A stretch of DNA of 64,000 bases from positions 32,001-96,000 of IMG/VR virus record IMGVR_UViG_3300030419_004788; one strand, 5' to 3'. Positions within the stretch are counted from its first letter, which is position 1, and every line of letters starts with the position of its first letter. The notes beneath the pieces are model-generated. The model did no database searches, had not been told where the DNA came from, and was given only the letters and a program-made list of their open reading frames with translations. Position numbers and translations under genes: made by a program. Origin of the DNA: a virus. Positions 24,723 through 43,675 of the stretch are shown here, piece by piece.

Positions 24723-26429
24723 TTACCCAACGATTTCGATTGCCAAACATGCTCTTGCTCTATGTTTATTATCTCGTCTAGACAAAACAATCATAGGAGA
24801 ATCACCGAAAGATTGGCAGTATGCTAATTGTGTTTTAGTTCCATAATCAAAATTAGTTTCAAAAGTAGATGTCCAATAGAATGTTGCATTACTTCTTTGT
24901 AAACCTGTGTATGGATAGTTTGGAGAATCATCAGATACAGTTGTGTTGGAAATAAAATCCAAATCGTCTGTTTGTTTCGCTATGAATCCCCATAAATCTT
25001 TTGATGGTATACCCCAATTCCACCAAACATTTTTATTATATGTTCTATTAATATTTTTTGTTAAATTTAAATTGTTGTGTGCATGGTTATACCAAGAATC
25101 CCAATTAGAACTGCTTAATACATCAGAAGAATTTAAATCTGGTTCATATGCTAAACTAGAACTTCCAAAGTCGCTCTCTGCAATTATTATAGCAAATGTT
25201 TTATTGGAGTTTTTAGTATTATCATTATTCTTTGGATAATAAGTATAACAAATTCCTGTATTTTCTGATGTACCAAAACATTCACTGCCTGGACTATGTG
25301 TACTGTCTGCAACAATGAACTCCCCTACAAATCTACCCTGATTTAAAACTCTGCTTCCAAGTTTCCAAGTGTCTACAGTGCTTCTTGGTATTTTGTTTTT
25401 ATTTGTCATGTAGTTTTGTATATCTGTAGTAATTGTATCCGTACATAATACCTGTTTACCATCTTTATTATATCCTGCCCAAATTCCATTCTTTTTATCG
25501 CATATGGTTTTAGTTTCATTATTACAAACTAATTCTTTAGAAGATGAACTTGTCTTTCTTAAATATGAACAACTAGATTTTAAATCATCGGAATGAACAT
25601 CAAATAATAAATTATTAATATTACCCTTTGCAGTGTAAACATTTGTTCTTCGGTCTTTTTCGTAATATCCTTCACTTTCTGCTTTTTCATATTCTTCACT
25701 ATCACATGATGATAAGACAATATTTACTCCCTGATTATCTGGGTCATAATAACCATCACCTATCGGCATCACACAATAGTTGGCAGGATAGTAAGCAATT
25801 CCTGTTGCTCCATGAGCATTACCAAAAGTTGCACATTCTTTTGTAGAACAAGCACTATCACAAGTAATACCAGAACAACATGCACCAGGCCATCGGACAT
25901 CGGGAACTGTACCACCCTTTGTACATAACATGTGTGCGCCAACCCTAACTGCAAGGGGAGCATTTGGACCGTCATTTAAAGGAACTATATCTGTATATGC
26001 ACCACAAGATATACCTTGTGCCCATACACCACCCTTATCAGAACATTCACAAAAAGTTACATCGTCTTGTAATCCGCCTTGATAACAAGGGAAAGTATAA
26101 TTTCCATAGTTTATGTTTTCACAATTAGCACTCAATTCATTATAGGTGTCAAAGAATCCAGTCGCACCCGCTGGTCCTCCAACACCGTCCCCCCAATTAT
26201 CTACATAACTGCAAGAACAGCAACAACCAGTTGCACCCAAACTTGGGCATGAAACTTGTGTGATGTCATTGTTTTCAACAGGTTGCCAATGACCACCATT
26301 TGCAACGCAAGTATTATAATATTCCAGAATAGGACCATCCGCACGAGCGTAGCAACATGCACCTTGACTATTTGCGTTCGAGGTGTAGTCTGCAACAGAT
26401 TTTATTCTAGACCTGTGTTGAATACTCAT
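24723..26429 (-). CDS. Cys-rich putative virion fibre/adhesin with GACC-type repeats and C-terminal DUF1566/Lcl-like domain
   Basis: GACCY, GCCCSCS and GACCS units. C-terminal WGIPSKDLWGFIA...FYWTST...AYCQSF...HRARAC pattern. Late promoter upstream. Confidence 0.6.
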   Translation of the reverse strand: MSIQHRSRIKSVADYTSNANSQGACCYARADGPILEYYNTCVANGGHWQPVENNDITQVSCPSLGATGCCCSCSYVDNWGDGVGGPAGATGFFDTYNELSANCENINYGNYTFPCYQGGLQDDVTFCECSDKGGVWAQGISCGAYTDIVPLNDGPNAPLAVRVGAHMLCTKGGTVPDVRWPGACCSGITCDSACSTKECATFGNAHGATGIAYYPANYCVMPIGDGYYDPDNQGVNIVLSSCDSEEYEKAESEGYYEKDRRTNVYTAKGNINNLLFDVHSDDLKSSCSYLRKTSSSSKELVCNNETKTICDKKNGIWAGYNKDGKQVLCTDTITTDIQNYMTNKNKIPRSTVDTWKLGSRVLNQGRFVGEFIVADSTHSPGSECFGTSENTGICYTYYPKNNDNTKNSNKTFAIIIAESDFGSSSLAYEPDLNSSDVLSSSNWDSWYNHAHNNLNLTKNINRTYNKNVWWNWGIPSKDLWGFIAKQTDDLDFISNTTVSDDSPNYPYTGLQRSNATFYWTSTFETNFDYGTKTQLAYCQSFGDSPMIVLSRRDNKHRARACLAIEIVG

Positions 26430-26445
26430 ATAGTTTCCTTTATAT

Positions 26446-26453
26446 TATTTATA
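26446..26453 (-). promoter_or_regulatory. T4-type late promoter TATAAATA
   Basis: Exact motif 16 nt upstream of the ATG at 26429. Confidence 0.8.
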
Positions 26454-26457
26454 ATCA

Positions 26458-29400
26458 TTAACATCGAGGCCACTCACAATTTCCTTCACAATACATTTCT
26501 TGACATATACCATTTACCAAATATCTACCAATTCCTTCTGTGGAGTTCTTTGTTGTTTGTTTTTGTATATTGCTTGATGTTTCATTTGTTTGAACTTCTT
26601 CTTGTGTATTATGGTAGTATGGAATATAATCTGGCATAGACGGGTCCATACCTTCATTATCTGGTGCAATTGCTGGTTCTGCCACATAGTTTCTTTCGTC
26701 TGGTAATAGTGGTGTAATAATATCTCCAGCACAACCCCAATGCGAATCACAGTCAGGGTCATCGCAATTTTCAGGGGTGCAATCGCCTTCCGTAGCCGCG
26801 CATTCCGTGCAACAAATCGAATCTGGGGCACCACACTGGTTACAACAAACTGGCGAACCCTCACTACAAGCAAACCCTTCTACATTGCAACAATCAACAC
26901 TTGGACCCCCTGGGACATCGGGTACTATAGTTGTATTACCATCTTCTGACAAACATTGGAAGAACCAAGGATGAACAATGCAATCAGGATTCGTACAACA
27001 TCGTTCTGTGTTTTTATCGTAACATGTCCCACCACAACATTGCTGGTCTGTTCCGGGAACATCAGGACAACAAACACAATCATAGGGAAAGTCCATATCA
27101 TATTTACAACAACAAGACTCTGAGCCAGAGTCAGCATTAACCATGTCTGGACACATGGTGTTGTTTTGGCAACAGTGTGAACCATAGTCTGGTCCTCCAT
27201 CTCGATTGTCGTAACATATTCCGTTACAACATCCAGAGTCTGGATGCCCATACGGGTCGGGATTAACTTTTTTATTCCAACCAGTACTTTCTGTACAGAA
27301 ACATTCCTCTGTAGTACCCAACCATTTACAAGGAAGAACACATTGTCCAGTTATTTCACAACATTCCTTTCTAAGCATATGTACACCATTACAACATTCA
27401 TCATAATCAGGGTCATTCTCATAGCACGCGCCCTTTCCTTCCCAACCACAGTGATTCACTCCTTCGCATGGCGACCCACCTTCACTATTTCGATATAGAC
27501 AAGGACAATCTTGTCCTGTAAATGCACCAATTGCATCAACATCCACACCATCACATCCTTGTACTGTTGAACAACAAACCCAGTTTCCAGTCGCTGTGCA
27601 ATTAAAGTCATTTTCTGGGTCGTAACTTATATTACCACCACAATCCCACTCCATTGCCCATCCTGTACAACATTCTCCAAACCATTCTGGTTCGTGTTCG
27701 TGTCCAGGCTTGGGTTCACCGGCATCATTACACTCATTTGCAACACAGTTATAACCCATCTCAGTACCGCACACTCTCGGAATAACATAGGAATCCCCAT
27801 TGCAGTGGTATCTTTCTTCCCAACCACAACAATTTACATTACCATCCCAGCCAGGACAACACGATTCGGGGGTTTGTATCGGGTCACCCAATTTGTCTAC
27901 TGCATCTGGAATAGTGTTGCCGTTATCACAACAAAGTTTTTCTTTAGAATCAGCACCTTGAATACTCAGACAACAAGTTTCACCCGGATGAGTGATTATA
28001 TTATTTTCAATATGTGGATTTAGACAACACGATGGGTCGGGGTCATGCAAAGAATGAGCGCAACATGATTCTCCAGGTTGAGTCCACTTTGTTTTACATG
28101 TTTGATTTGCCCTGAACTGGTAAGAACCATCATCAACAGGACAAGTATTATGGTCTGTAATATAACAACCAACATCACCCTCTGTGCCTGTGGGGAAACA
28201 TGCACCCCAATCGCAAAAACCTGCTGGACCAGGCAAATCATTCCATTGTCCACCAATACCGATACATCCATTTACAGTATTACATCTACTGCACCAACAC
28301 TTTCCTGTGTTAGAATCCCACATACCACCCCAAGTATTACATCCACTTTCTTGATAACAATTTTGACATCCACATTCTATAATGTTCGCACTGCCAGTAC
28401 ATGGGTCGGGGTTATCATCATAGAATATACCACCCTCTTTACAACATGTAGCGGGTTCATAACCAATACCATCAAACCATTCAGAGAAACAACAATACTC
28501 TGCATCACCATGCCCATCTACTTGCCGTGTACCACCACAACATTTTCCACTTGCAGAGCCGCAACATTCTTGTCCAGGCATACAACAATTTGCAGGGTCG
28601 CCACTCCCCATAGTTGAACCACAATAAAAACCACCAGGACAATCTGTTGGCCAGTATCCGCAACATCTTTCTTCTACACAATCACCATCAATACATGTCC
28701 AACCGCATGTATCTTCACATTCAAAAGTAACTGGACCACCAACACCAAAACAATCTGTTCCAATTCCACAATCGTTTACCCCATCACCATCTAAATCTAA
28801 ACACCCGTTACAGTTTGGAAAATCCCCTTCTTGTTGTGCTGGTCTACAACATCTATAGAATACACTTCTCATCCACGGTGGATTGTTTGAATCGATATTT
28901 TCACAATCATCTAATGGACTAGGTTCAAATGGATGCCAACAAGTTCCACTACATTGACCACCAAACTGTGGCCAATATGGTAAACATGAATCACCACCTG
29001 CCCAACAACAACAACAATATTGTGATGGCTCCCAACACATAAATGCTGTCATAATGTCACATACACTATCACACCCATGAAATCCACCACCTCCTGCTTG
29101 ACATGAACCCTCTGTGGTGTGTATGCATCGTGCGAAAGGTGTATTTGGGTCTACACAACATGCACCATAACAACTACCTACATTACAATCTATACATTGT
29201 CCTGGATTTGATAAATCATTTTTCTGGTCACCACATTCTCCATTACAACAGCAAGAACCATCTGGACAATCAGAATCAGTTGCACAAAGTTCACCAGGGC
29301 ACACTTCACATACTCCATCATCATTACAACAGAATTGATACCCACCAAAAAGACAATCAGGAACTGGTCCAGTGCCCACACAACCAGCGCAACAAGAGAA

Positions 29401-31419
29401 ATCACTTGATAAATTTTCACATGTAGTATTGGAGAAAGAACCTCCCGATGCCGTACATGATTCTTGTGTACTATCATTTAAAACTGACTCACCATCCACA
29501 CAAGTACAGCAACAACCACCGCATGAAATTGTATCACAAGATGTACCACTTCCTTGAAATTCACCACCACATGCACTTTCTTCTGTCATGGAACATACAC
29601 CATCAGTGCAACATGCACCAAAACCAAAATTACAAATGCTTGATTTTCCACATTGACAACTTCCTATTGAAGCATCTGGACAAACGCCTGAGTGCCAACT
29701 ACCACCAATATATTCACACTCTGAGAATGTTAAATTTTTACAACAGTTAGTTTGTTCTTCTATAGGAGCATCACAACAATTACACTGTGAAGAATTTAAA
29801 CAACAAATTCCTGTGTCACCAAAACAACAAATATCCGTTTCACAGTCAGTTCCTGGTCCCATGAATATACCACCAACAGATAAACATTCTTGATTTGTTA
29901 CATCATAACATTGTTCAAGTTGTTCAAGACAACATGCTCCAACTACAACACTATGGTCGCAACAATCAACACTTCCACAAACACCACCTTCTACTGGAAC
30001 ACCACCTAAAACATATTTGCAAATATTTGATGACACTGAACCAAGTTCACTAGAACCTATACTATCTGCAACACAGACACCATCTTTACAACAAGCAATT
30101 TCATCACAAGGGCTTGCACACAAATCTTCCATGATATAACAATCAATTGGTATTGGAGTTTCTAGTTCTTTTAAGTACCATGCACCATCTTCTGTTTCTG
30201 CATCTTCATAATATAAATGAGTCCAGAAACTCCCACCAAAGTAATTACATTCTGCTAAACCCTTTCCTTCTACACAAATACCAGTTCCAATATAATTTCC
30301 CCAATTTCCACCATCACTACAGCAAATTCCTTCAGCAGTTCTTCCACAATTTTCTGAACAGTCAGAAAGCATATTCCATATTGCCATATTCTTTTCTTCA
30401 CATATATTTTTTGTTGTATATTCTATACATTGATTTTCGCCTTGGTCATCAACAAAACAACAAGAACCAATGTTTATTATACCATCACAATCTCCCTCTG
30501 ATACTCCATATCCTCTAACTGTAAATGAAGCATTCCATGTAGAACCGCCATCGGTACTTATAAAGTTTATAATATCTTCTGCACAAGAAAAGTATGCATC
30601 ATCTTCATCAAAATAGACATTTACTGGCCAGTCCCATATATTATTACTTTGCATAATAATTGTAAAACTAAATACTTCATCTGAATTAAAGTCACCAGTA
30701 AATCCTGCAATCCCTATTGGTGTACTAACTTTATATACAGAAGCGTGTCTGACTTCTAATTGTATTCCTGTTCCATCGCCAGCAGTTGGACCAGAATTAT
30801 CCCAGATTCCACCAGTAATTCCAACAATTTCAACAGATTCTATTTCTGGTAAAAATATAATATTTTCTTCTGGGTCTAGTGTCACATTATTATCTAAAGA
30901 CATTATACCACCAGACTCGAAAGTCAACCCCGATGCACTAGCAGTTCCCCCATCAGAAAGATATAAGAATCTGTCTGTAGCAAGTGTTCCCGCAGATGAT
31001 ACTTGTTTACTATTATCACCACTGATTGCAATTGTTTTACTATCTTGTGAAAGATAAACAGAAACAGAACCATCTGAAGTGATTCCTCTGAACCACAATG
31101 TGGCACCAGTAACACCGTTACCCACTGTACTGAATACAGTTATACCATCACCGAGATTAACCCCATTAACAGTCCCTGTTGCTCCTGTAATCCCTGCAAC
31201 ACCCTTTATTTGGACTATAGAACCATCTGATAGGTTTAAATTTAAATATGGAAATTCTTTGCTAGTAGAAACAACATGGATACCAGTTGCACCAGTATTT
31301 CCTGTAGCACCAGTTGCACCAGTATTTCCTGTAGGTCCAGCAACAGTAGCACCACTTGGACCTGATGGACCAATTGCGTTAAAGTCTGGTGTTATTGAAC
31401 TACTTCCGATTACTGGCAT
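26458..31419 (-). CDS. Giant Cys-rich putative tail fibre (1653 aa): collagen-like GXT N-terminus, fibre domain, GACC repeats, then dicysteine repeats; paralogue of 31450-37218
   Basis: MPVIGSS...GPSGPSGAT..GPTGNTGATGATGNTGATG and TLWFRGITSDG. FSFTII..WDWPVNVYF...DIINFISTDGGSTW is a tail-fibre-type domain. GxCC units follow, then CC-x-G-x-C units. Confidence 0.7.
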   Translation of the reverse strand: MPVIGSSSITPDFNAIGPSGPSGATVAGPTGNTGATGATGNTGATGIHVVSTSKEFPYLNLNLSDGSIVQIKGVAGITGATGTVNGVNLGDGITVFSTVGNGVTGATLWFRGITSDGSVSVYLSQDSKTIAISGDNSKQVSSAGTLATDRFLYLSDGGTASASGLTFESGGIMSLDNNVTLDPEENIIFLPEIESVEIVGITGGIWDNSGPTAGDGTGIQLEVRHASVYKVSTPIGIAGFTGDFNSDEVFSFTIIMQSNNIWDWPVNVYFDEDDAYFSCAEDIINFISTDGGSTWNASFTVRGYGVSEGDCDGIINIGSCCFVDDQGENQCIEYTTKNICEEKNMAIWNMLSDCSENCGRTAEGICCSDGGNWGNYIGTGICVEGKGLAECNYFGGSFWTHLYYEDAETEDGAWYLKELETPIPIDCYIMEDLCASPCDEIACCKDGVCVADSIGSSELGSVSSNICKYVLGGVPVEGGVCGSVDCCDHSVVVGACCLEQLEQCYDVTNQECLSVGGIFMGPGTDCETDICCFGDTGICCLNSSQCNCCDAPIEEQTNCCKNLTFSECEYIGGSWHSGVCPDASIGSCQCGKSSICNFGFGACCTDGVCSMTEESACGGEFQGSGTSCDTISCGGCCCTCVDGESVLNDSTQESCTASGGSFSNTTCENLSSDFSCCAGCVGTGPVPDCLFGGYQFCCNDDGVCEVCPGELCATDSDCPDGSCCCNGECGDQKNDLSNPGQCIDCNVGSCYGACCVDPNTPFARCIHTTEGSCQAGGGGFHGCDSVCDIMTAFMCWEPSQYCCCCWAGGDSCLPYWPQFGGQCSGTCWHPFEPSPLDDCENIDSNNPPWMRSVFYRCCRPAQQEGDFPNCNGCLDLDGDGVNDCGIGTDCFGVGGPVTFECEDTCGWTCIDGDCVEERCCGYWPTDCPGGFYCGSTMGSGDPANCCMPGQECCGSASGKCCGGTRQVDGHGDAEYCCFSEWFDGIGYEPATCCKEGGIFYDDNPDPCTGSANIIECGCQNCYQESGCNTWGGMWDSNTGKCWCSRCNTVNGCIGIGGQWNDLPGPAGFCDWGACFPTGTEGDVGCYITDHNTCPVDDGSYQFRANQTCKTKWTQPGESCCAHSLHDPDPSCCLNPHIENNIITHPGETCCLSIQGADSKEKLCCDNGNTIPDAVDKLGDPIQTPESCCPGWDGNVNCCGWEERYHCNGDSYVIPRVCGTEMGYNCVANECNDAGEPKPGHEHEPEWFGECCTGWAMEWDCGGNISYDPENDFNCTATGNWVCCSTVQGCDGVDVDAIGAFTGQDCPCLYRNSEGGSPCEGVNHCGWEGKGACYENDPDYDECCNGVHMLRKECCEITGQCVLPCKWLGTTEECFCTESTGWNKKVNPDPYGHPDSGCCNGICYDNRDGGPDYGSHCCQNNTMCPDMVNADSGSESCCCKYDMDFPYDCVCCPDVPGTDQQCCGGTCYDKNTERCCTNPDCIVHPWFFQCLSEDGNTTIVPDVPGGPSVDCCNVEGFACSEGSPVCCNQCGAPDSICCTECAATEGDCTPENCDDPDCDSHWGCAGDIITPLLPDERNYVAEPAIAPDNEGMDPSMPDYIPYYHNTQEEVQTNETSSNIQKQTTKNSTEGIGRYLVNGICQEMYCEGNCEWPRC
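29630..31419 (-). repeat. Paralogous 5' block (~1.8 kb) shared with 35440-37218
   Basis: The first ~600 aa of the two giant ORFs align almost colinearly. Long identical nucleotide runs occur, e.g. aaatttaaatatggaaattctttgctagtagaaacaacatg near 31240 and 37040. Confidence 0.9.
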
Positions 31420-31449
31420 TTTTTATTCCTATAGAATCTCCATTTTTAT

Positions 31450-34400
31450 TTATGTTTCGTTTGTACATGCAGGATATGGACAACCTTCCTCATCACATCC
31501 AATCCATTCACACCTTCCATCTGGAAGTTGAAGATATTGAATATTTCCACTTTCATACCATATAAAGGTACTGCAACTGAGGGGGTCACATGTAATACAG
31601 TTATCCCAAAAACTACAATCCAAAGTTTCACAACCGCCTTCAGTTCCATCCGCAGGACACGCCCATGAGTTTGCAGTTGCTCTACAGCACGGTGACAACG
31701 ACTCACAATACAAATGCGCCGAGTCTGGACTATCTGAATGATGAATAGGCACATCTGCACAACATGCATTACCCTCACAATATTGGTCATATAAAGAACA
31801 ACAACAACAACTATATGAAGGGAAACAGTCTTTCATATTGTCTTCACAAGTTGTGCCTAAACCTTTCCATACACAATCAGAACCACTAATTTCACAACTG
31901 AACGCATCAGGTTTCAGTTCGCATTCGCAACTTGCATCATCATCCGAAGAACATCCACAACAACAAGCACCTTCTTGACTGCCCTGCTGACACACAACAC
32001 TCCCGCAATCTACGAAGCCCTCCCACGAACCTTCATTTGTTTCACATTCATCTTCATTCAACTCATAACAAGTTTCATTTATACAACAAGCACCAATTGT
32101 TGCACAAGGATTGTTGGTACAGTCTGAACCAGTACCTTCAAAGTCATTTGTACTACAATTATCAACAATTTCTACCGTACAATTTTCACCATCGCAACAA
32201 GCACCGCAACATTCATCATATTCAGCATCTCCTGGTGAGTAATCACCACAAGTTATAGTAGTACAATCAATACCACATAAATCATTTGTACAGACAGAAC
32301 CCAGACCTTGAAATTCTCCACCTGCAGCGTCACACTGCCATTCTGGAACTCCCTCTAAACCGACTCCATCCGCACCTATACAAACCTTCCCAAATGTCGG
32401 TGATGTCAGACAACACGCACCGCAACATTCATCAAATTCATCATCTCCTGGCGACCAATCACCACAATCTATGGTGCTACAATCGAGAGTACACTCTGAT
32501 TGATAATCATTACATGTACTTCCACACCCTTTCCAAACATAACCACTGGTAGTACAGTTTGATGGGATTTCTTCAGAACAATTAGCACCACAACAATCAT
32601 CATCCCAACAACATGCACCAGTAGATACTAAACAGTTCGTTCTTGTTGCACATGACTTTTCTTCAAATTGACCTCCAAAATCATAACATTCAGAACTCAA
32701 CAAATTATCTTCACAAACAACACAACCATTGTCAATTTGTATGTAACAACAAGAACCATAACAACTATCGATACAATCATTACAATCATGAATTATACTA
32801 TCACAATCGTATGCATTTCCTTGAATAATCTCATCACAACTATATGGACAATTATTATTACAACAATACTTTTGTGGACAGGTAATACCAGCACAAGTAT
32901 TTGCATCATTCCAATCACCGCCTGCGTCAGTGCAAACAGTGTCTACAATCCCCACCTCACAAGCACCCCAAGGCCAACAACATCGACCAATTGTTATGTT
33001 ATTGCAGTCAGTTCCTGGTTCATTATTACCATTACAGTCTGCTACACAACAAGTATTACAACCAAGCCAAGTTCCACCTGCACCTTTACACGCATCCTCA
33101 CTACCTCGTTGCTCACATGTTTCATCTGGCATACAACATGCACCATCATAAGATTCCGCAAGGCAGACCGGTCCATTTGGAGGGCATAAATGCGTGCCAC
33201 TAAATGTACCACCATTAGGACAACATTGTGACAATGTATCTTTGCAATCCGTTGGGTTTTCACAATCACCCCAACAACATGCACCACAATCGTTACAAGG
33301 ACAATCATTTGCACATACTTCATTAGGACGCCATATTATGTTTGAGTCTGTTCCCCATCCCACACAGTCAACCTCTAATACATGGTCGAAGCAAGTTATA
33401 GGGCAATCTCCAGCACATGGGCGTTCGCATATTGTACCGAAACGATGGTCACAACACATTCCATAAACTGGTTCATCACATATAGTACCATCACCACATG
33501 AAGTATTTTTTCCTTTGAATTCATCACCTCTACCGTCACAAATTTCAAAAGTTGTTATATAACACCCACTACCACCAGAAGAACAACATGCACCTGTTAT
33601 ATCTGAATTACACCAAGTACTTGTTTCAATCCCAGAACAATCTAAATTTGCATCCCATAACCCAAATAATTCTTCACATGCACATTCACGCATACTCTCA
33701 CATACCACAGAACCTGTTCCATCGATATAACAACAGTGGCCATTCACTCCAACATCTAGACAACAAATAGTATTAGAGCATAATGTTCCTAATCCATGCC
33801 AATGATAAGTCCATTGGTTACATTGTTCTTCGGTTTCGATTGTACATGTACCTGTACTATAATCACAGCAAGCACCAGTTAATTGTTCAAGTTCATCCCC
33901 ACAACATTTCCTTCCACCCACATCTTTAATCTGCTCGCATGTCAGGTAAGGATTCCATCGGTTACATGCTTCCCCACCTCCTGCAACATTTAAACAATAG
34001 TCTTCGTCCCAAATAACTCCATCAAAACAAGCATATTCACAGGAATTACATTCTGGATAGTCATTCGAGGATTGTTTAAAACAACATGCACCGTATCCAT
34101 TCCCGCTTGGTGGACATACGAAATCAACACATGTCGTTTGGTTGCCATGAAAAACTCCACCGAGAGTAGTGCAATCATCCTGTGTGTCCACCATTTGACA
34201 TTCATCTAGTACACAACATGCACCTATTACTGCATCACCACATGAAGTTGTATTACAAGATGTATTTGCTCCTTGCCAGTCGTTTATTGGCATCCCCCAA
34301 CAATCACACTCGGTCATTTCAATACATGTCTTTGCATCTACATCTCCATAGCAACACGCACCTTCATCGACATCATTACAGTTTTGCCAACAATCCACAT

Positions 34401-37218: not shown

Positions 37219-37251
37219 TGTGTTTCATTCCTTGTAGAAGTTTCCATAATA

Positions 37252-37259
37252 TATTTATA
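37252..37259 (-). promoter_or_regulatory. T4-type late promoter TATAAATA
   Basis: Exact motif 33 nt upstream of the ATG at 37218. Confidence 0.8.
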
Positions 37260-37263
37260 TCAA

Positions 37264-40200
37264 CTACCCACAGGAATTGCCATCTGGGCATTCACCGCCA
37301 GCAACACCACCATTACATGTTCCTCGATGTACCCAACAACCACCGAAAAATTGACAACGAGTTTCATTCATTTGGTGTGCATAGTATCCACTCCATCCTT
37401 GTTCAATACAATCTCCTGCTTGTGGAATTTGCCAATCGTTAAATTCATATAACCATGTTAGATGGGAAGGTAATGCCCAATTATCTGTGAAGCAACAACA
37501 ACCATCCATATTGACATTATTACAATTATTATCTGGGAAAGAAGTACCATGTTTAAGTGCCATACAAACTTCATCAGCACTTAGCCATGGATGAGCGGGG
37601 CTTCCTTCACTACCAATCCATTCACACGAACGACCAACAGTTTCGTTGATAGCGTCCTCTCCTTCATTCAACCACCAACAACATGATGTCATTAGTTCTG
37701 AAGTATCAAATCCATCTGGGCAGGGTTCACCTCTTTCATCACAGCAAGACATATTGGTTTTGTCAGTAATTCCTTTATCGAAATTACCACCAATATTTTT
37801 CCCCTGCAATGCAGTACCATCATAGTCACAACAACACTCATAAGGAGTGCCATCTGCTAATATAATACTACCTGTCTGCATTGATGTTGTGGAAATTGTA
37901 ACATCTTCACCACCACATGAAATTGCATGACCAATTTGATTTAAAGTGTCTTTTATATCATTAATTCCAATCATTGAATAATATTCACTGCTTGTTGCAA
38001 GGGGACTTACCCATTCAGGGTGTGTATTTTCTGTTCCTACATCAACACATATAGCGTAAATGATAACACCATCATTCTTTAGATTTTCCGCTTCTGCTAT
38101 CGCTGCCTCTGCTTCTGCTGAAGAACGGAAGTTTCCATTGGATATTATTATTAATATTTTTCCATGAGTATGATTCAGTTCAGTGTTTATTCTATTTGTA
38201 ACAATTTCAAAATCACCCCTAACAAGTTGCAATGGTCTGGTGAGTACTCTATCACCTATTGCCATACTGTATATGCCTTCTTTTACTCTTGCATAATTAT
38301 TGGTAAGAGAAATATCTACTGAAGTGTCTGTAAATACTGAATCATTAAATCCTATTTTTTCATATCTTGAATCTAATTGGTCTACAAACGAAGTAAGTGC
38401 AGGTTTAATAATATTTGAGAATTGGAACATTTCTATATTTGTATCTGCGAGCAACATAACATCTGGACTGCTTGTTAAACTTCGACATTCATCTGCAAGT
38501 AAGTGTTCACCACCCAAAGAAGTTGGGGGTCCTATTGGGTCGGGTGTATTATAATTGTTGGTAGAACATCCACTCCAGAAAATATGAGAGTAAGAATTAT
38601 CGATACCATCATTTAAATCTGAACATGCTCGACTTGTTTTCTGCTCACATCCCCATACACCTTCAAAAGTGAGATGACAACACATACCTAAACATTCTTC
38701 TTCTATATTCACACTGCCTGGTTGACATATTGGAAGGTCTTCTATATAACACTGACCAGGTCCATCACCATAACCAACTTCAGGACATTCACAAATATTC
38801 CCACCAAAGTCTTCACACACACCACCTATACTTTGTTGCCATCCACGACATAAAGGACATGGTGCATATATTGGTGGGTCGTAAGGAACTCCATTTTCAT
38901 CTAAACAAAGTCCATCAACATTAACAAAACCAGCAGGACCACCATTCTCTGTTGGCCAGTTATCAATATCTGTTCCACTTTCACGACACCATGTACAACT
39001 AAATGGTGCATATGCCGCACCTTCATAATCTCCACCACCACCAATCCTATTTGGTCCAGCACAACGAGAACCAACACCCCAGAAAGTTCCTTTAGAACCA
39101 TCCGATGCAGTAAGATTTACACAAACTGAAGGGGAAGTTTCATAACATCTAGCAGATGTATTGGTATCACCGACACAACAAGCACCGATGCTTCCTTCTA
39201 GGCAACAGTTTACAGCATCTTCTCCTGTACACGAACCACCAATAAAGAATACACTATTAGGTTCAAACGAACATTGATATTCACTCATTTCATAACAAGC
39301 ATTTTCTACACAACAAGCACCTGTTTCTTGACACGGTTCTGGACAACCTCCTAAAATTTCAACATCAACACAAGTCTTTCCTTCAACATAGAAACCACCA
39401 TAAATATTTCTACATCTATTCAAAGAAGTTTCTGCACATATTCCATTTACACAACAAGCACCTTCCGAATAACAATTTGGTCCTTCTGGTCTTGAAAGAC
39501 AAGTTGTTGTATCAAATACACCACCCAGATTTGTGCAGTAATCTTCTGTAACATAATCCACACATCCAGGATAATCATCTTCACCTATTGTATTATCTGT
39601 ACAATAACAACAAGAACCTAGATTGCTAGAATCTGCGGCATATAAAGTATCATTTATAGTCTTTGAATTATCAAATACATGTTTTACATCTGTGGAAGTT
39701 CCTAATACAGAATCATGTGTTTGTCCCATATGGAATCCAGAATATATTTCAGTTTTACCATCAGCATTTGTGCTGATATATGTGAATGGAACAAATTCAC
39801 CAGTTTGACCAGCAGTAGAACCAACAGTCGAAGTGTTTTCAATAGAATCTTCTTTCTCTAGATTGACTGATGATTTTGCTTCTCTAAATGTTGTTAATCT
39901 TGCTATAAGATTTTTCTTATCATCATCCCAAAAAGTATTTAATGAACCATGTGCGGATAATCCATCATATATGTGTACCAATTCTCCAGTATTTCCCATA
40001 ATACCATATTGATATGTTGCACCCCTTATTCGTATATCATAATCTGTGACTCCGAGTATAGAAATATCTCTACCACTAGAAGTAAGGGTTCTAAAATATG
40101 CAGTACCGCCAGCAGTACCGTCTGATATTAATTCTTTAAAAATTTCACTATATGGAGAATTGGTAGTAGCATTATCAATATCAGAAGATGTATGCCATTG

Positions 40201-40527
40201 ACCAGAATCAAAAGTAATACCATCACCTGTTGCACCTGTACAACCTTCGACTGCAATTGTTGTTCCTGTGTCGATGGTAAATGTAAGTGTTCCAAGACCA
40301 TACGAATTACCACCAGAGGTTATACCATATGAAAATCCTGAAGTTCCATCATCAAAATCATACCATTCAAATGTAATTCCAGAACCAGTAATACCAGTAG
40401 CACCTGTTGGACCAGTAACACCAGTAGCACCAGTTGGACCTGTTGGACCTGTATTACCTGTGGGTCCTTGAATCGAACCCATAGCACTCGTGTCGTGTAT
40501 TCTACTTGAGCCGTGAATTACTGCCAT
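37264..40527 (-). CDS. Cys-rich putative fibre/adhesin (1087 aa) with collagen-like N-terminus, GACC repeats and a von Willebrand factor A-like domain
   Basis: GPTGNTGPTGPTGATGVTGPTGATGITG, TAYFRTLTSSG and GSCC/GACC units. vWA-like block DVMLLADTNIEM...KILIIISNG...AENLKNDGVIIYAICV...LATSSEYY at about 37915-38470. Confidence 0.7.
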   Translation of the reverse strand: MAVIHGSSRIHDTSAMGSIQGPTGNTGPTGPTGATGVTGPTGATGITGSGITFEWYDFDDGTSGFSYGITSGGNSYGLGTLTFTIDTGTTIAVEGCTGATGDGITFDSGQWHTSSDIDNATTNSPYSEIFKELISDGTAGGTAYFRTLTSSGRDISILGVTDYDIRIRGATYQYGIMGNTGELVHIYDGLSAHGSLNTFWDDDKKNLIARLTTFREAKSSVNLEKEDSIENTSTVGSTAGQTGEFVPFTYISTNADGKTEIYSGFHMGQTHDSVLGTSTDVKHVFDNSKTINDTLYAADSSNLGSCCYCTDNTIGEDDYPGCVDYVTEDYCTNLGGVFDTTTCLSRPEGPNCYSEGACCVNGICAETSLNRCRNIYGGFYVEGKTCVDVEILGGCPEPCQETGACCVENACYEMSEYQCSFEPNSVFFIGGSCTGEDAVNCCLEGSIGACCVGDTNTSARCYETSPSVCVNLTASDGSKGTFWGVGSRCAGPNRIGGGGDYEGAAYAPFSCTWCRESGTDIDNWPTENGGPAGFVNVDGLCLDENGVPYDPPIYAPCPLCRGWQQSIGGVCEDFGGNICECPEVGYGDGPGQCYIEDLPICQPGSVNIEEECLGMCCHLTFEGVWGCEQKTSRACSDLNDGIDNSYSHIFWSGCSTNNYNTPDPIGPPTSLGGEHLLADECRSLTSSPDVMLLADTNIEMFQFSNIIKPALTSFVDQLDSRYEKIGFNDSVFTDTSVDISLTNNYARVKEGIYSMAIGDRVLTRPLQLVRGDFEIVTNRINTELNHTHGKILIIISNGNFRSSAEAEAAIAEAENLKNDGVIIYAICVDVGTENTHPEWVSPLATSSEYYSMIGINDIKDTLNQIGHAISCGGEDVTISTTSMQTGSIILADGTPYECCCDYDGTALQGKNIGGNFDKGITDKTNMSCCDERGEPCPDGFDTSELMTSCCWWLNEGEDAINETVGRSCEWIGSEGSPAHPWLSADEVCMALKHGTSFPDNNCNNVNMDGCCCFTDNWALPSHLTWLYEFNDWQIPQAGDCIEQGWSGYYAHQMNETRCQFFGGCWVHRGTCNGGVAGGECPDGNSCG

Positions 40528-40528
40528 A

Positions 40529-43500
40529 TTATTGATTAATTCCTTGGTCTGAATCTCTTATTACTTTTGGTAAATCCCAAAGTTTTTGGTTTGCATGACC
40601 ACCAGTAGCATATTTACCATCGCATCTGATTAAACGAATTGGTCTTACCTTATATGTATTTCGTGTTCTGTTTTTCTTTCCTACAAGGAAATTATTTTCT
40701 TTTTCATTTATATCGAACTTCATTGCCCATGCAAGACTGCCTGCATCTGCGGTAGAACCACCACTACCTATAACTCCTTCTCCCGATGCAGTTCTTCCTT
40801 TTGTTTCATCGAATGCACCAGTAGATGTCCAGTGCCAACCATCAAGTGGAACAGCACCTTTTATTAAGAGAGAAGCATTTAAATCAAAATCGTGTGGATT
40901 ACTGCTTACACAATTTGAAGCAATGAATGACATTTCATCATGACTTGGAATATACCACGATGAAACTACAGCATCATTTGTTCCAGTTCCACCAGTAATA
41001 GTTGTTAAGTTATCATCCATTAATCTTGTTGCTCGGAATGCAGAAATATAGTCACTCGTCAATCCTGGACCAAAGTCTGTTGATGAATAGTGACCATCTT
41101 TATCATCATATCCTTCATATAATACATTGTCAGCATTAATGATTCTAATGGTATTATAAATTCCCCAGTTCCTGTGCCAAAGTCCATGTGCAGACTGCAA
41201 AGGTTTTGTGGTAAGTTTTTGTGCATATCCCGAACCAAGTCTTCGTGCATTCCTACAAGATGTAAATGTGTGACTTCCTAAAACATTTAATGATTTCTCA
41301 CCAATATTTTCATTAAACCAATATCCTTCGGAAAGTTTAAATACTGTTTGAATATAATTTTCGTGTATTTCATCAACCTGTCCTGTATCTGGATTGTGCA
41401 ATGGTCCCCATGAACTTCCTCTATTACCCCAATAGAATTCTTGAGTTGCACCATCAAAGTCTGAATTATAATAGTTTATAACTTGTCTGTCGCCAGTTAT
41501 TGCAACTGGTGATGGTGAGATTATCATATAATATGCATCTGGTCTAGATAACTCATCGTCCTCTAATGGTAATCTATCATAATCTGGACATCCTTTTTCT
41601 GAAGTAAAACCATATCCATGCCAGTCATATTTAGAACGATATAAATCACAGGTTAATCCTAAATTGTCCGATAAAGAACCAGTTGCACCAAGCATTAAGT
41701 TTTGCCAATCAGCATCTTTACTTTCACCAAAACTTTTAGAACCAAATACCTGTGAACCAAATGGTCTATAGAGTCCAACTACAACACCACCTGCATATTC
41801 ATCTCCAGGCATAAGGTCTAATCCTGCAACAACTGGAACACAACTACTGTGTTCGTCTGTTCTGTGTCTGGTATCTTCACACTTTGTACCCTTGCCTGCA
41901 TATAAGTTACCACCACTTATACAGTCACTTCCTGTAATCCCATTACCACATGTTCCACCAGAATAATAGCAAGCACCTGTTCCTCCATAACAAATTTCAG
42001 TTCCATCATCTAATGAACATACACTTCCTTCTCCATGAAAATAATAACCAAGTGCAAGACATTCTTTTCTTGTTCTTTGTGAACATCCTCCTCTACCATC
42101 ACAACATGCACCCAAACCTCTACTAGCATTATCACAGTCCATGTTTCTACAGTCTGCTGATAGTCCACCAAATGAAGTTTCTACATCTAAAAGTTCACCG
42201 AGATTTATACAATCATCTACACTTAAATCATTAAAACATTCTATCTTTCCACTGTTTGTGTAGTGAACACAACACGCACCTGTATCAAAACAAATACTTC
42301 CTGTCCATCCACTAGTTAGTCCACCACATACTGTATTAGAACCGTGCCAATATCCTGTGCATAAATCTTCTATTGTGTGTATACATTCACCTTCTCCTCT
42401 ACAACACGCACCTGTAGAACCAGTTGCACCAAATAGTTTTCTTTCACTACCCTTATATGAAACTTGTTCTTCTGGATAATATAAAAACTCACCGCATTGT
42501 TTTTCTCTATCATGACAGAAAAATGGGTCATCAGAAGTTCCTTCTGATATAACAGTACCAGCAGAATTCCATTGAACTATGTTTCCATGCCACGCTACAC
42601 CATCTGGACAAATTCTACCGCCTGGGCAATCAGAATTTCTTGTTTCACATGGCAACCAGAAGAAGTTAAATATATCTGTTCCACCACTAAAACAAGGTTG
42701 TCTGTCGAATGGCCATATAACATTAGAAAATTGAAAATTGTTTTGAGGTCCATATGTTGCACCCTTAACTATAAGTGTAAAGGATTTACCTATATCATTT
42801 AATGTACCTATATTATTTCCAGTGTATCCAAAACTTGCATCTGCAATATCAATCGTTTGTATTGGTCCAGTACTACCTACACTATAATCAAAATCATTAA
42901 GAGCAGTTAAGTCCAATTCAACTACACCAAATTTGTTTGGTTCTAACACACCACCAATTCCACCAGACTGCAACACATATGGTGGCCAAGCACCATCATA
43001 TGTTGTAATTTCATATGTTGTTCCTGCTCCATCGTTATTGTGTCGGAAACTTAAATACTTTGAGTTTTCTCTATAACTTTTTAGTCTAACACTAATACCA
43101 CCAGAAGTTCCACTTATATTATAAGTTGCTCCAGTAAGTCCTGTTAATTGTCCACCAACTAACTGTCCAGTAACCCCCGAACCACCTGTAACATCTAAGT
43201 AACCAAAGTTTCCTCGGTCATAATTTAAGTCGATTGTATTTAAATGTTCTAATGTTGTGTTTGTTAAAACACCACCAGTACCTTCGATGCTTCTTATAGT
43301 AATTTTATTTGAAGAATCTTGAACCTTAAATACTGTAGCACCACCAGAACCACCAAATCCTAATAGATTTTCACCATAGGTATTTCCACCATCTATGATA
43401 GTTTCTGTATTACCAGTAGGTCCTATAATAGAAGTGGGAGTTGTCCAAGTGGTAATAACAGAAGTTCCACCATCTTCAAACCTTTCAAATTGTGTGTAGA

Positions 43501-43675
43501 GTCCATCCGTTGCATTTATAGACATTGCAGTGATACCACCACCACTCCAACCAATAGGTCCTTCAACTGTTGGTCCATCAGGTCCAGTAGGTCCCGTTTC
43601 ACCAGTGTTACCAGTCGGTCCAGTTACTTCGGTTGCCCCAACGACTTTAAAATAACTGCTACCATATACTACCAT
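40529..43675 (-). CDS. Cys-rich putative tail fibre (1048 aa) with collagen-like N-terminus, four GAC(C) units and C-terminal DUF1566/Lcl-like domain
   Basis: GPTGNTGETGPTGPDGP and SFTLIVKG...VIWPFDRQPCFSGGTDIFNF fibre domain. GACC x3 plus GACY. C-terminal GDEYAGGVVVG...WYIPSHDEMSFIA...WHWTST...AWAMKF...KVRPIRLI. Confidence 0.7.
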   Translation of the reverse strand: MVVYGSSYFKVVGATEVTGPTGNTGETGPTGPDGPTVEGPIGWSGGGITAMSINATDGLYTQFERFEDGGTSVITTWTTPTSIIGPTGNTETIIDGGNTYGENLLGFGGSGGATVFKVQDSSNKITIRSIEGTGGVLTNTTLEHLNTIDLNYDRGNFGYLDVTGGSGVTGQLVGGQLTGLTGATYNISGTSGGISVRLKSYRENSKYLSFRHNNDGAGTTYEITTYDGAWPPYVLQSGGIGGVLEPNKFGVVELDLTALNDFDYSVGSTGPIQTIDIADASFGYTGNNIGTLNDIGKSFTLIVKGATYGPQNNFQFSNVIWPFDRQPCFSGGTDIFNFFWLPCETRNSDCPGGRICPDGVAWHGNIVQWNSAGTVISEGTSDDPFFCHDREKQCGEFLYYPEEQVSYKGSERKLFGATGSTGACCRGEGECIHTIEDLCTGYWHGSNTVCGGLTSGWTGSICFDTGACCVHYTNSGKIECFNDLSVDDCINLGELLDVETSFGGLSADCRNMDCDNASRGLGACCDGRGGCSQRTRKECLALGYYFHGEGSVCSLDDGTEICYGGTGACYYSGGTCGNGITGSDCISGGNLYAGKGTKCEDTRHRTDEHSSCVPVVAGLDLMPGDEYAGGVVVGLYRPFGSQVFGSKSFGESKDADWQNLMLGATGSLSDNLGLTCDLYRSKYDWHGYGFTSEKGCPDYDRLPLEDDELSRPDAYYMIISPSPVAITGDRQVINYYNSDFDGATQEFYWGNRGSSWGPLHNPDTGQVDEIHENYIQTVFKLSEGYWFNENIGEKSLNVLGSHTFTSCRNARRLGSGYAQKLTTKPLQSAHGLWHRNWGIYNTIRIINADNVLYEGYDDKDGHYSSTDFGPGLTSDYISAFRATRLMDDNLTTITGGTGTNDAVVSSWYIPSHDEMSFIASNCVSSNPHDFDLNASLLIKGAVPLDGWHWTSTGAFDETKGRTASGEGVIGSGGSTADAGSLAWAMKFDINEKENNFLVGKKNRTRNTYKVRPIRLIRCDGKYATGGHANQKLWDLPKVIRDSDQGINQ

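What the first reader, a model, noticed from the sequence alone, without database searches (positions are those of the whole stretch)
24723..43675. A ~19 kb array of five cysteine-repeat ('GACC') proteins replaces the T4 gp9-gp12/wac fibre genes: candidate new class of disulfide- or metal-stabilised virion appendage
Seen: five consecutive ORFs (568, 1653, 1922, 1087 and 1048 aa) sit between the gp8/fibre genes and gp13. Several are preceded by TATAAATA late promoters. Four share an N-terminus M-x-V-(I/Y)-(H)-G-S-S plus a short G-X-T collagen-like run and an (F/I)R(G/T/S)(I/L) motif. All carry ~40-45 aa repeats beginning G-x-C-C; a typical 43 aa unit holds 6-7 Cys. A sixth member lies at 54865-58956, bringing the total to about 23 kb. 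Established: T4-like virions assemble in a reducing cytoplasm, and characterised T4 fibres are Cys-poor beta-trimers. Inference: these are modular beads-on-a-string appendages, more like secreted disulfide-rich adhesins, stabilised either by disulfides formed at or after lysis or by bound metal. No sulfhydryl oxidase is visible in the window.
Basis: partly seen in the sequence, partly recalled or inferred. Interest (0 to 1): 0.92.

Follow-up and report, generated by a model that had tools for sequence, protein, structure and literature searches.

The report
Cysteine-bead tail fibres of marine phage
An uncultured marine T4-like phage builds a set of giant tail-fibre-like proteins largely from a small six-cysteine bead that no domain catalogue names but that is very common in secreted proteins of planctomycete bacteria, so a virus assembled inside a cell seems to need several hundred disulfide bonds.

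Summary
Six minus-strand ORFs (568, 1653, 1922, 1087, 1048 and 1363 aa) hold 729 cysteines (3.2-13.0% Cys; other genes mostly 0-2.3%). They share a ~40-aa six-Cys module (GACC-x5-C-x7-C-x3-GG-x-[YFW]-x-G-x4-C-x4-C): 34 significant copies, found only in these ORFs of the 123-kb contig.

The "new class" reading is only partly right. The module is missing from Pfam, NCBIfam, PHROGs and 50,697 phage records. Yet a profile of the phage's own units hits 8,610 protein clusters, mostly signal-peptide-bearing multidomain proteins of Phycisphaerae/Planctomycetota and Ca. Eisenbacteria. Its only solved relative, weakly, is the disulfide-stapled iRhom homology domain.

A fibre role is supported by:
- the position in the T4-like baseplate-neck module;
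- a shared M-x-V-x-GSS plus collagen-like N-terminus in four proteins;
- conserved synteny with variable repeat number in four related contigs;
- a confident model of protein E's C-terminus with an Lcl_C/C-type-lectin fold (Z 8.8-10.6).

Disulfides are favoured over metal, but I could not measure this. No thiol oxidase lies in the 68%-complete contig. Disulfide-linked fibres are known in cyanomyophage Pam3, though on a far smaller scale. This scan met the same module earlier on other DNA, including other T4-like phage contigs. Verdict: a new variant of a known kind.

The parts
24723..26429 (-). Protein A (568 aa, 29 Cys). It has a Cys-rich N-terminal half with two weak GACC-type units. Its C-terminal half carries W-G-IPS-K-D and F-Y-W-T-S-T motifs.
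   Evidence: hhalign against the E family gives only motif-level similarity
26458..31419 (-). Protein B (1653 aa, 195 Cys). It is a paralogue of C, with 56% identity over the first ~850 aa. It has 3 canonical units followed by ~850 aa of non-canonical Cys-rich sequence.
31450..37218 (-). Protein C (1922 aa, 249 Cys, 17 canonical six-Cys units). It is the longest shaft.
37081..37170 (-). Collagen-like G-x-(T/S) run of C (residues 17-46). Equivalent runs follow the N-terminal GSS motif of B, D and E.
   Evidence: the Pfam Collagen match is below the cut-off (15.8-16.5 bits against 27.2)
31990..35742 (-). Region of C that holds the canonical GACC units (residues 493-1743). The three-unit segment 34504-34893 was modelled.
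34728..34906 (-). Two neighbouring units that are 90% identical over 50 nt, exactly 129 nt (43 codons) apart. This indicates a recent unit duplication.
37264..40527 (-). Protein D (1087 aa, 66 Cys). It has a GSS plus collagen-like N-terminus, 3 units, a Cys-poor middle domain of unknown fold and a Cys-rich C-terminus.
40529..43675 (-). Protein E (1048 aa, 34 Cys). It has a GSS plus collagen-like N-terminus, 4 units (residues 421-602) and a lectin-like C-terminal half. It is the most conserved member, with 93 relatives.
40532..41848 (-). C-terminal domain of E (residues 610-1048). The predicted fold is C-type-lectin-like of the Lcl_C/DUF1566 type, making it a candidate receptor-binding tip.
54865..58956 (-). 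Protein F (1363 aa, 156 Cys, 5 units). It lacks the GSS/collagen start, has an unassigned N-terminal 480 aa, and lies between two hub-like ORFs.
26446..26453 (-). T4-late-promoter-like TATAAATA, 17 nt upstream of the start of A.
37252..37259 (-). T4-late-promoter-like TATAAATA, 34 nt upstream of the start of C.

Best explanation
The six genes encode the host-recognition appendages (tail or baseplate fibres) of an uncultured marine T4-like phage.

Four of them (B, C, D, E) start with a common short anchor (M-x-V-x-GSS) followed by a short collagen-like run. That run probably makes them trimers and docks them to the same kind of site on the baseplate (inferred).

The shafts are strings of independent ~40-residue beads. 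Each bead is a beta-hairpin plus a short helix, held together by six conserved cysteines, most probably as three disulfides (inferred). The bead is homologous to a module that Phycisphaerae and other bacteria use in exported surface and secreted proteins (shown).

The distal ends differ between paralogues. E ends in a C-type-lectin-like Lcl_C/DUF1566-type domain of the kind used by phage receptor-binding proteins and bacterial adhesins (shown by model and fold match). The set therefore offers several binding specificities on stalks of different length.

Repeat number changes quickly by unit duplication and loss (shown). The phage proteins have no signal peptide and the contig encodes no thiol oxidase, so the beads probably become fully oxidised only when lysis exposes virions to oxic seawater (inferred, untested).
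For: Position and context:
- The genes lie in the structural module between gp6/wedge genes and gp13-gp14-gp15-gp17.
- The collagen-like N-termini hit tail-fibre PHROGs 6320, 819, 5073 and 30509.
- Gene order E-D-C-B-A-gp13 is kept in four related viral contigs, while C varies from 1695 to 3078 aa. A recent 43-codon unit duplication is visible.
- GC3 equals the phage background, so these are long-resident phage genes.

The bead:
- The model has pLDDT 88.7 and pTM 0.46.
- A profile of the phage units retrieves 8,610 clusters, 864 of them at E<=1e-30.
- Named hits are Phycisphaerae, Planctomycetota and Eisenbacteria proteins with dockerin, LTD, reprolysin, Cu-oxidase and FG-GAP partners.
- 163 of 257 retrieved hits have signal-peptide-like N-termini.

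Disulfide rather than metal:
- Each of the six Cys is 97.7-100% conserved over 1,670 units. The rare losses come in pairs: C1+C4 three times and C2+C6 twice.
- The only solved relative is the iRhom IRHD (profile E 7e-4 with all six Cys aligned; Z 3.4, 31% identity over 42 residues). That domain is 'stapled by 8 disulfide bonds' (PMC11248996).
- The next structural neighbours are Kazal/follistatin three-disulfide minidomains.

Tip of E:
- The model has pLDDT 85.5 and pTM 0.91.
- Matches are 4eps (Z 10.6), the Lcl C-terminal domain 8q4e (Z 8.8, 128 of 131 residues), then TvpA, the Bd2740 fibre tip, Mtd, invasin and intimin.
- DUF1566, tail-fibre and collagen-repeat phage proteins match in BFVD.

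Precedent: disulfide-linked fibres confirmed by mass spectrometry in Pam3 virions (PMC9942802).
Against: - There is no virion proteomics or imaging, so presence in the particle rests only on gene position and architecture.
- No match exists to any characterised fibre shaft, and no cultured phage has relatives.
- The paired-loss signal rests on only five units.
- The iRhom matches are marginal (E about 1e-3, Z 3.4).
- The collagen runs are short (about 10 triplets) and score below the Pfam cut-off, so trimerisation is not shown.
- A, B and C have odd cysteine counts.
- Folding roughly 120 disulfides per C chain without a catalyst is hard to picture.
- The contig is only about 68% complete, so an oxidase could lie in the missing part.
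- F lacks the shared N-terminus and may have a different role.
Confidence: 0.6

Rival explanations
1. The proteins are the same virion fibres, but the beads are held by bound metal (for example zinc-thiolate clusters). They could then fold in the reducing cytoplasm without any oxidation step.
For: - The phage proteins lack signal peptides and are made in the cytoplasm.
- No Erv/ALR or DsbA is present in the contig.
- The cysteine density is extremely high, and B and F contain many CC, CCC and CCCC runs outside canonical units. These recall metal-thiolate proteins.
Against: - The homologous bacterial beads are exported by signal peptides into oxidising compartments.
- Six Cys without conserved His, Asp or Glu ligands fit three disulfides better than one tetrahedral site.
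- The rare Cys losses occur in pairs.
- The nearest solved structures are disulfide-stapled.
Confidence: 0.13
2. The proteins are not built into the virion. They are late-expressed soluble or cell-surface-directed products released at lysis, for example mimics of host surface proteins that act as decoys, block superinfection, or bind host scaffolds or biofilm.
For: - The bead is shared with host-type secreted proteins that often end in dockerins.
- The same contig encodes a PEP-CTERM-tailed protein, which shows that the phage does carry envelope-directed cargo.
- F sits apart from the array and lacks the fibre-type N-terminus.
Against: - The genes lie inside the baseplate-to-neck structural block with tight spacing and late-promoter-like motifs.
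- The collagen-like N-termini and the lectin-like tip are typical fibre architecture.
- None of the six has a signal peptide, dockerin or sorting signal.
- Together the six genes take up 23 kb, 19% of the 123-kb contig (about 13% of the ~180 kb implied by CheckV), and they are conserved in synteny.
Confidence: 0.12
3. The array is a recent capture of host surface-protein genes and is evolutionary baggage without a dedicated phage function.
For: The bead is homologous to Planctomycetota proteins. Total GC is raised across the genes.
Against: - GC3 (0.17-0.22) and the TGT preference match the phage background. The extra GC lies at codon positions 1 and 2 only.
- The N-terminal and C-terminal domains are specific to the phage clade, with 93 E-type relatives down to 25% identity.
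- All frames are intact across diverged contigs.
Confidence: 0.03

Closest known systems
Unnamed 'GACC' six-cysteine repeat of secreted and surface proteins of Planctomycetota (mainly Phycisphaerae), Ca. Eisenbacteria and others. Examples are P0026 on chromosome CP030884.1 and MHC5002041.1.
   Same: - The same ~40-aa unit with the same six-Cys spacing and the GG-x-[YFW]-x-G motif.
- Tandem beads-on-a-string arrangement.
- A phage-derived profile scores these proteins at E down to 1e-147, and 1e-209 for unnamed metagenome proteins.
   Different: - The bacterial proteins have signal or lipoprotein peptides. They are combined with dockerins, LTD, proteases, oxidases and similar domains.
- The phage proteins have no signal peptide. 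They have a collagen-like N-terminus and phage-clade-specific end domains.
- Phage units are more degenerate, with extra cysteines, and have AT-rich codon usage.
iRhom homology domain (IRHD) of animal iRhom1/iRhom2 (PDB 8SNL, 9O58, 9XY4, 9Q7Y)
   Same: - One or two segments of the IRHD align with the unit with all six Cys in register (E 7e-4).
- Z 3.4, rmsd 2.1 A, 31% identity over 42 residues.
- Both are extracellular, and the IRHD is disulfide-stapled (PMC11248996).
   Different: - The IRHD is a single compact domain between two transmembrane helices of a rhomboid pseudoprotease, not a tandem array.
- The statistical support is marginal, so homology is not established.
Legionella collagen-like adhesin Lcl and DUF1566/Lcl_C (PF07603) domains at phage fibre tips; the C-type-lectin-like receptor binders Mtd, TvpA and invasin/intimin
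   Same: - E combines a collagen-like N-terminal run with a C-terminal domain whose model superposes on Lcl_C (Z 8.8, 128 of 131 residues).
- The model also matches DUF1566 phage proteins.
- WYIPSHDEL and WHWTSTG motifs are invariant in 45 relatives.
   Different: - The Pfam PF07603 model does not match E even at E<=10.
- The E domain is about 440 aa with large insertions.
- Four six-Cys beads and a 400-aa N-terminal domain lie between the collagen run and the tip.
Disulfide-linked tail fibres and wedge of cyanomyophage Pam3 (PMC9942802)
   Same: A myophage whose appendages depend on disulfides formed despite cytoplasmic assembly. DTT releases the fibres.
   Different: Pam3 has a handful of inter-subunit and intra-wedge disulfides. 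It has no Cys-repeat shaft. Here hundreds of intradomain cysteines build the shaft itself.
T4 gp9-gp12 and wac (fibritin); marine cyanomyovirus fibre genes
   Same: The same genomic neighbourhood (after the wedge genes, before gp13) and presumably the same role in the particle. gp17 is about 60% identical to cyanomyovirus gp17.
   Different: - No sequence similarity was found. The contig has no Pfam gp9/10 or gp11 match.
- T4 fibres are Cys-poor beta-helical trimers (established knowledge).
- gp6 is only about 29% identical to its cyanophage counterparts.

Membership tests
Uncurated GACC six-Cys repeat family (Planctomycetota-type secreted proteins) | Six cysteines in the pattern CC-x5/6-C-x7-C-x13-C-x4-C, with GG-x-aromatic-x-G between C4 and C5 | tested here: met
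   Alignments A1 and A2 show invariant or near-invariant Cys and Gly columns. Each Cys is 97.7-100% conserved across 1,670 units.
Uncurated GACC six-Cys repeat family (Planctomycetota-type secreted proteins) | Significant profile similarity to the bacterial members | tested here: met
   A profile built from phage units only retrieves 8,610 clusters at E<=1e-3. Phycisphaerae proteins score at E 1e-147 to 1e-25. One bacterial genome holds at least 119 units.
Uncurated GACC six-Cys repeat family (Planctomycetota-type secreted proteins) | Export signal (Sec or lipoprotein signal peptide) on the carrier protein | tested here: not met
   None of the six phage proteins has a hydrophobic N-terminal signal. 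By a crude rule, 163 of 257 hits do.
iRhom homology domain | Sequence and fold match to the solved IRHD | tested here: inconclusive
   hmmsearch E 7e-4 to 0.33; Foldseek E 0.13; VIA Z 3.4 over 42 residues
iRhom homology domain | Location as the loop between TMD1 and TMD2 of a rhomboid-like membrane protein | tested here: not met
   No rhomboid match was found (Pfam), and no hydrophobic membrane-spanning stretch was seen on reading the translations. No transmembrane predictor was run.
Lcl_C / DUF1566 (PF07603), C-type-lectin-like fold (C-terminus of E) | Match to the Pfam model | tested here: not met
   No PF07603 hit at E<=10 for residues 600-1048
Lcl_C / DUF1566 (PF07603), C-type-lectin-like fold (C-terminus of E) | Fold superposes on the solved Lcl C-terminal domain and on C-type-lectin-like receptor binders | tested here: met
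   8q4e_A gives Z 8.8, rmsd 3.0 A and 128 of 131 residues aligned. 4eps_A gives Z 10.6. The CTLD superfamily fills the list below. DUF1566 phage proteins match in BFVD, and the atlas gives a lead at 0.91.
Collagen triple-helix repeat (PF01391) | An uninterrupted G-X-Y run scoring above the Pfam cut-off | tested here: inconclusive
   Runs of about 9-10 triplets score 15.8-16.5 bits against a cut-off of 27.2. The same runs hit collagen-like tail-fibre PHROGs at E 1e-4 to 6.5e-7.
T4 gp9/gp10, gp11 and gp8 baseplate-fibre proteins | Match to PF07880, PF08677 or PF09215 anywhere in the contig | tested here: not met
   No match at E<=1. The GP11 control rang nowhere, so that one is weak evidence.
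Kazal / follistatin three-disulfide minidomains | Fold and cysteine spacing | tested here: inconclusive
   Z 2.0-2.3 with 3-8% identity. There is no Pfam Kazal hit.
Virus-encoded thiol oxidation systems (Erv/ALR, DsbA, thioredoxin/glutaredoxin) | Presence of such a gene in the phage genome | tested here: not met
   PF04777 and PF01323 are absent. The only thioredoxin-fold match is below the cut-off and lies inside the 497-aa Trx-GSII ORF. The contig is 68% complete.

The most novel reading that the evidence does not exclude
Infectivity of this phage clade is redox-gated. The fibres leave the cell as reduced, largely unfolded chains and become rigid, receptor-competent stalks only after spontaneous oxidation of several hundred cysteines in oxic seawater. 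The phage uses its host's own surface-protein bead, so the fibres are chemically and sterically compatible with the planctomycete cell surface. This would also make the clade the first recognisable T4-like phages of Phycisphaerae.
Probability: 0.2. Interest if true: 0.85.

Novelty: new variant of a known kind. Interest (0 to 1): 0.62.

Why it matters
Phage fibres decide host range. Known myophage fibres are Cys-poor beta-structures, whereas this clade builds its shafts from a six-cysteine bead otherwise used by bacteria outside the cell.

If the beads are disulfide-bonded, a virion assembled in a reducing cytoplasm must acquire about 350 disulfides per set of six monomers, and no oxidase is encoded in the available 68% of the genome. 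That poses a concrete, testable folding and maturation problem.

The bead is also a very large protein family (thousands of clusters) without a name, a structure or a function. The phage proteins add a new context for it. Together with the PEP-CTERM gene, they point, without proof, to Phycisphaerae. I know of no cultured T4-like phage for that group (my own knowledge, not tested here), and no cultured phage in the collection has relatives of C, E or F.

The weak but reproducible link to the 'unprecedented' iRhom homology domain would, if confirmed, give that animal domain a bacterial and viral ancestry.

Tried and rejected
Catalogue and phage-collection searches that found nothing:
- Pfam, PHROGs and NCBIfam on the whole proteins and on separate domains gave nothing for the Cys-rich parts.
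- Megablast and tblastn of C, E and F against 50,697 phage records gave no match.

Ideas that failed or stayed open:
- My idea that D residues ~750-880 form a vWA domain found no Pfam hit at E<=10 and no PDB sequence hit. I dropped it.
- A's C-terminus as a second Lcl_C-type tip: BLAST E 1.1, hhalign probability 9%. Inconclusive.
- F's N-terminal 480 aa: PDB sequence search and atlas gave only sub-threshold leads.
- The N-terminal domain of B and C has only 11 clade-specific relatives and no PDB match.

Structure:
- Foldseek of the three-bead model against the PDB gave nothing at E<=0.001.
- Direct measurement of Cys-Cys distances was not possible because model coordinates are not exposed.

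Host and taxonomy:
- Host inference through the Trx-GSII gene found no relative in genome contigs.
- Alignment A2 was too variable for a collection scan.
- Taxon names were not given for the relatives of G001. Only 4 of 151 sampled genomes of its phylum have the repeat.

Literature: searches for the repeat, for 'GC-type dockerin' and for Cys-rich T4-like fibres found no description.

Artefact reading: chance ORFs or a wrong frame are rejected by the conservation across contigs and by the 8,610 profile hits.
Full report
**1. What is there**

I label them:

| Label | Window coordinates | Length (aa) | Cys | % Cys |
|---|---|---|---|---|
| A | 24723-26429 | 568 | 29 | 5.1 |
| B | 26458-31419 | 1653 | 195 | 11.8 |
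| C | 31450-37218 | 1922 | 249 | 13.0 |
| D | 37264-40527 | 1087 | 66 | 6.1 |
| E | 40529-43675 | 1048 | 34 | 3.2 |
| F | 54865-58956 | 1363 | 156 | 11.4 |

Together they hold 729 cysteines. The conserved T4-like neighbours gp6, gp13, gp14, gp15, gp17, gp25 and gp48 have 0-1.0% Cys, and no other ORF in the block exceeds 3.7%.

I seeded an HMM on seven units of C and iterated it on all ORFs of the 123-kb contig. It converged on 34 significant units. All lie in these six ORFs: C 17, F 5, E 4, B 3, D 3, A 2. The consensus is TGACCVDAGTCIEETESDCDALGGEFQGDGTSCDDVIC, with six cysteines per ~40 residues.

- A is a marginal member of the repeat family.
- The C-terminal ~850 residues of B are Cys-rich but not canonical.
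- An exact TATAAATA precedes only A and C among the six. The motif is not enriched overall (10 observed, 8 expected). However, five coding-strand copies lie 10-34 nt before start codons.

**2. Context**

The window is part of an IMG/VR viral contig of 122,976 bp, estimated at 68% complete. PHROG and Pfam matches identify a T4-type structural block: gp48, gp53, hub-like ORFs, gp25, gp6, a wedge subunit and a tail-fibre-like 785-aa protein on one side of the array, and gp13, gp14, gp15 and gp17 on the other.

- gp17 is about 60% identical to the gp17 of marine cyanomyoviruses.
- gp6 is only about 29% identical.
- No gp8, gp9/10 or gp11 family match exists in the contig.

So the array occupies the place where T4 has gp9-gp12/wac. 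"Replaces" remains a positional inference.

**3. The genes are real, long-resident phage genes**

Four other viral contigs keep the order E-D-C-B-A-small ORF-gp13-gp14-gp15-gp17.

- The C-type gene ranges from 1695 to 3078 aa, with 181-359 cysteines. One contig lacks B.
- Inside C, two neighbouring units are 90% identical over 50 nt at a spacing of exactly 43 codons. A 72-codon super-repeat is 82% identical over 83 nt. The array therefore grows and shrinks by unit duplication.
- The raised GC across the genes lies entirely at codon positions 1 and 2. GC3 (0.17-0.22) and the 6:1 preference for TGT match the rest of the phage. That argues against recent capture.
- B and C are paralogues: about 85% identity over the first 300 residues (read from the alignment) and 56% over the first ~850.
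- The E type is the most conserved, with 93 relatives of about 1000 aa from marine metagenomes.

**4. The bead is not new to biology, only to the catalogues**

Pfam, NCBIfam and PHROGs have no model for it. No cultured phage has relatives of C, E or F.

A profile made only from 21 of the phage's own units was scored against 1.84 billion representative proteins. It found 8,610 proteins at E<=1e-3, 3,899 at <=1e-10 and 864 at <=1e-30, each with 8-37 units.

- Where sources give names, they are almost all Phycisphaerae, Phycisphaerales or Planctomycetota MAGs, with some Ca. Eisenbacteria. One is annotated 'GC-type dockerin domain-anchored protein'.
- Partner domains include Dockerin_1, lamin-tail, reprolysin-type metalloprotease, multicopper oxidase, FG-GAP, CHRD, Laminin_G_3 and GEVED.
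- A scan of named genomes adds Isosphaeraceae, an Ignavibacteriales MAG, and open-ocean Phycisphaerales MAGs from Station ALOHA and the Arabian Sea.
- One complete 5.5-Mb chromosome (CP030884.1) carries at least 119 units in about 25 large ORFs. Only 4 of 151 sampled genomes of its phylum have the repeat.
- The bacterial proteins I read have signal or lipoprotein peptides. By a crude rule, 163 of 257 retrieved hits do. None of the phage proteins does.

**5. Fold of the bead, and disulfide versus metal**

I modelled a three-unit segment of C with an alignment of 63 three-unit tandems from phage and bacterial genes. The model has mean pLDDT 88.7 and pTM 0.46. Each unit is a beta-hairpin followed by a short helix and a loop, which gives confident beads with undefined mutual orientation.

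Matches to known structures:
- Foldseek finds nothing significant in the PDB.
- The exhaustive aligner puts iRhom2 residues 568-613 first (Z 3.4, rmsd 2.1 A, 42 residues, 31% identity). Kazal and follistatin-type three-disulfide minidomains follow at Z 2.0-2.3.
- Independently, the phage-only profile matches iRhom1 at E 7e-4, with all six cysteines in register.

Across 1,670 distinct units, each of the six cysteines is 97.7-100% conserved. The few losses come in pairs (C1+C4 three times, C2+C6 twice). This hints at a C1-C4, C2-C6, C3-C5 connectivity.

Four points together favour three disulfides per bead over a metal site:
- the bacterial homologues are exported;
- an even set of six Cys occurs without conserved His, Asp or Glu ligands;
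- the rare cysteine losses are paired;
- the neighbouring structures are disulfide-stapled.

I could not measure S-S distances because model coordinates are not exposed. The paired-loss evidence is thin.

**6. The ends of the proteins**

B, C, D and E begin M-x-V-(I/Y)-x-GSS, followed by 9-10 G-x-(T/S) triplets. These score below the Pfam collagen cut-off but hit collagen-like tail-fibre PHROGs. The same start is nearly invariant in 45 E-type relatives.

The C-terminal 449 residues of E were modelled with those relatives and gave pLDDT 85.5 and pTM 0.91. Structural matches:
- a Bacteroides fimbrial protein (4eps, Z 10.6);
- the Legionella Lcl C-terminal domain (8q4e, Z 8.8, 128 of 131 residues, rmsd 3.0 A);
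- then the C-type-lectin-like superfamily: Treponema TvpA, the Bdellovibrio Bd2740 fibre tip, Bordetella phage Mtd, invasin, intimin and animal CTLDs.

In the viral model library the matches are DUF1566, tail-fibre, collagen-repeat and peptidase-S74 phage proteins. A language-model look-up also points to Lcl_C. The Pfam Lcl_C model itself does not match. I therefore call this an Lcl_C-type fold, not a family member.

Other modules stay unassigned:
- A shares the two key motifs, but only at motif level.
- The middle of D, the N-terminal 480 aa of F and the N-terminal domain of B and C have no assignment.

**7. Mechanism proposed**

- Shown: bead homology, bead model, lectin-like tip, synteny and array plasticity.
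- Inferred: the proteins are trimeric baseplate fibres anchored by the common N-terminus, with shafts of disulfide-stapled beads of different length and different distal binding modules.
- Inferred and untested: oxidation happens at or after lysis.

No Erv/ALR or DsbA gene is present. The only thioredoxin fold is fused to a type II glutamine synthetase at 758-2251, but a third of the genome is missing.

Disulfides in myophage appendages are not unprecedented. Purified Pam3 virions have disulfides within the wedge and between fibre and wedge, confirmed by mass spectrometry, and DTT releases the fibres (PMC9942802). What is unusual here is the scale (about 120 potential disulfides in one C chain) and the use of a bacterial extracellular module as the shaft.

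**8. Host**

Three facts are compatible with a Phycisphaerae host but do not prove it:
- the taxonomic concentration of the bead;
- its presence in open-ocean Phycisphaerales MAGs;
- a PEP-CTERM-tailed protein encoded elsewhere on the contig.

The codon-usage result shows that the bead genes are not a fresh host import. The Trx-GSII gene gave no host lead.

**9. Earlier notes of this scan**

The same module was noted before on other DNA: in Phycisphaerae, Zixibacteria and Peribacter proteins and in other T4-like phage contigs, with the iRhom resemblance. I reached the same points from my own searches before reading those notes, and I do not count them as support.

**10. Verdict**

I classify it as a new variant of a known kind, namely phage receptor-binding fibres whose shaft is a six-Cys bead from a large, unnamed bacterial family.

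Noticed in passing
window 758-2251 (-): A 497-aa ORF whose N-terminal part gives the only thioredoxin/glutaredoxin-fold match in the contig, below the Pfam cut-offs. No close relative was found in 185,579 reference genomes by pattern scan.
   Followed up: partly
G000:C1:104035-104100 (-), about 8 kb beyond the window's end: A PEP-CTERM sorting signal (TIGR02595, 19.1 bits, over the cut-off) at the end of a 142-aa frame. This means a phage-encoded exosortase substrate.
   Followed up: partly
window 54022-54837 and 58973-61144 (-): Two ORFs (271 and 723 aa) flank the Cys-rich gene F. Both hit the same tail-protein family (phrog_350) in different parts of the profile, as if a hub or spike gene were split around F.
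   Followed up: no
window 26458-29000 (-), B residues ~800-1650: About 850 residues at 10-14% Cys with many CC, CCC and CCCC runs but no canonical GACC units. This may be a second, unassigned Cys-rich architecture.
   Followed up: no
window 32195-32277 and 32411-32493: An 83-nt direct repeat, 82% identical and 216 nt (72 codons) apart, encoding a D-C-x-T-I-x-C-G-D-x-S-P-G-D-x-E-x-D-E-C-C-G-A-C-C super-repeat within C.
   Followed up: partly
L007:10001-19237: In the most distant related contig the C-type gene is 3078 aa with 359 cysteines. No B-type gene follows it; the A-type gene comes directly after.
   Followed up: partly
window 48473-50470, 54022-54837, 24135-24662 (-): Several non-repeat ORFs in the baseplate and neck block have moderately raised cysteine content: 665 aa with 15 Cys, 271 aa with 10 Cys, 175 aa with 6 Cys. 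They could provide fibre-docking cysteines as in Pam3. This was not tested.
   Followed up: no
window 36289-37218 (-), B/C residues 287-297: An Asp-box (BNR-like) S-T-D-G-G-x-T-W motif at the end of the shared N-terminal domain of B and C. It is a single copy at Pfam E 0.019 and is not significant.
   Followed up: no
window 45033-47390 (-): A 785-aa Cys-poor protein just upstream of the array. Its C-terminal 350 residues match tail-fibre family phrog_4492 (E 3e-38), so the phage also has at least one conventional fibre-like protein.
   Followed up: no
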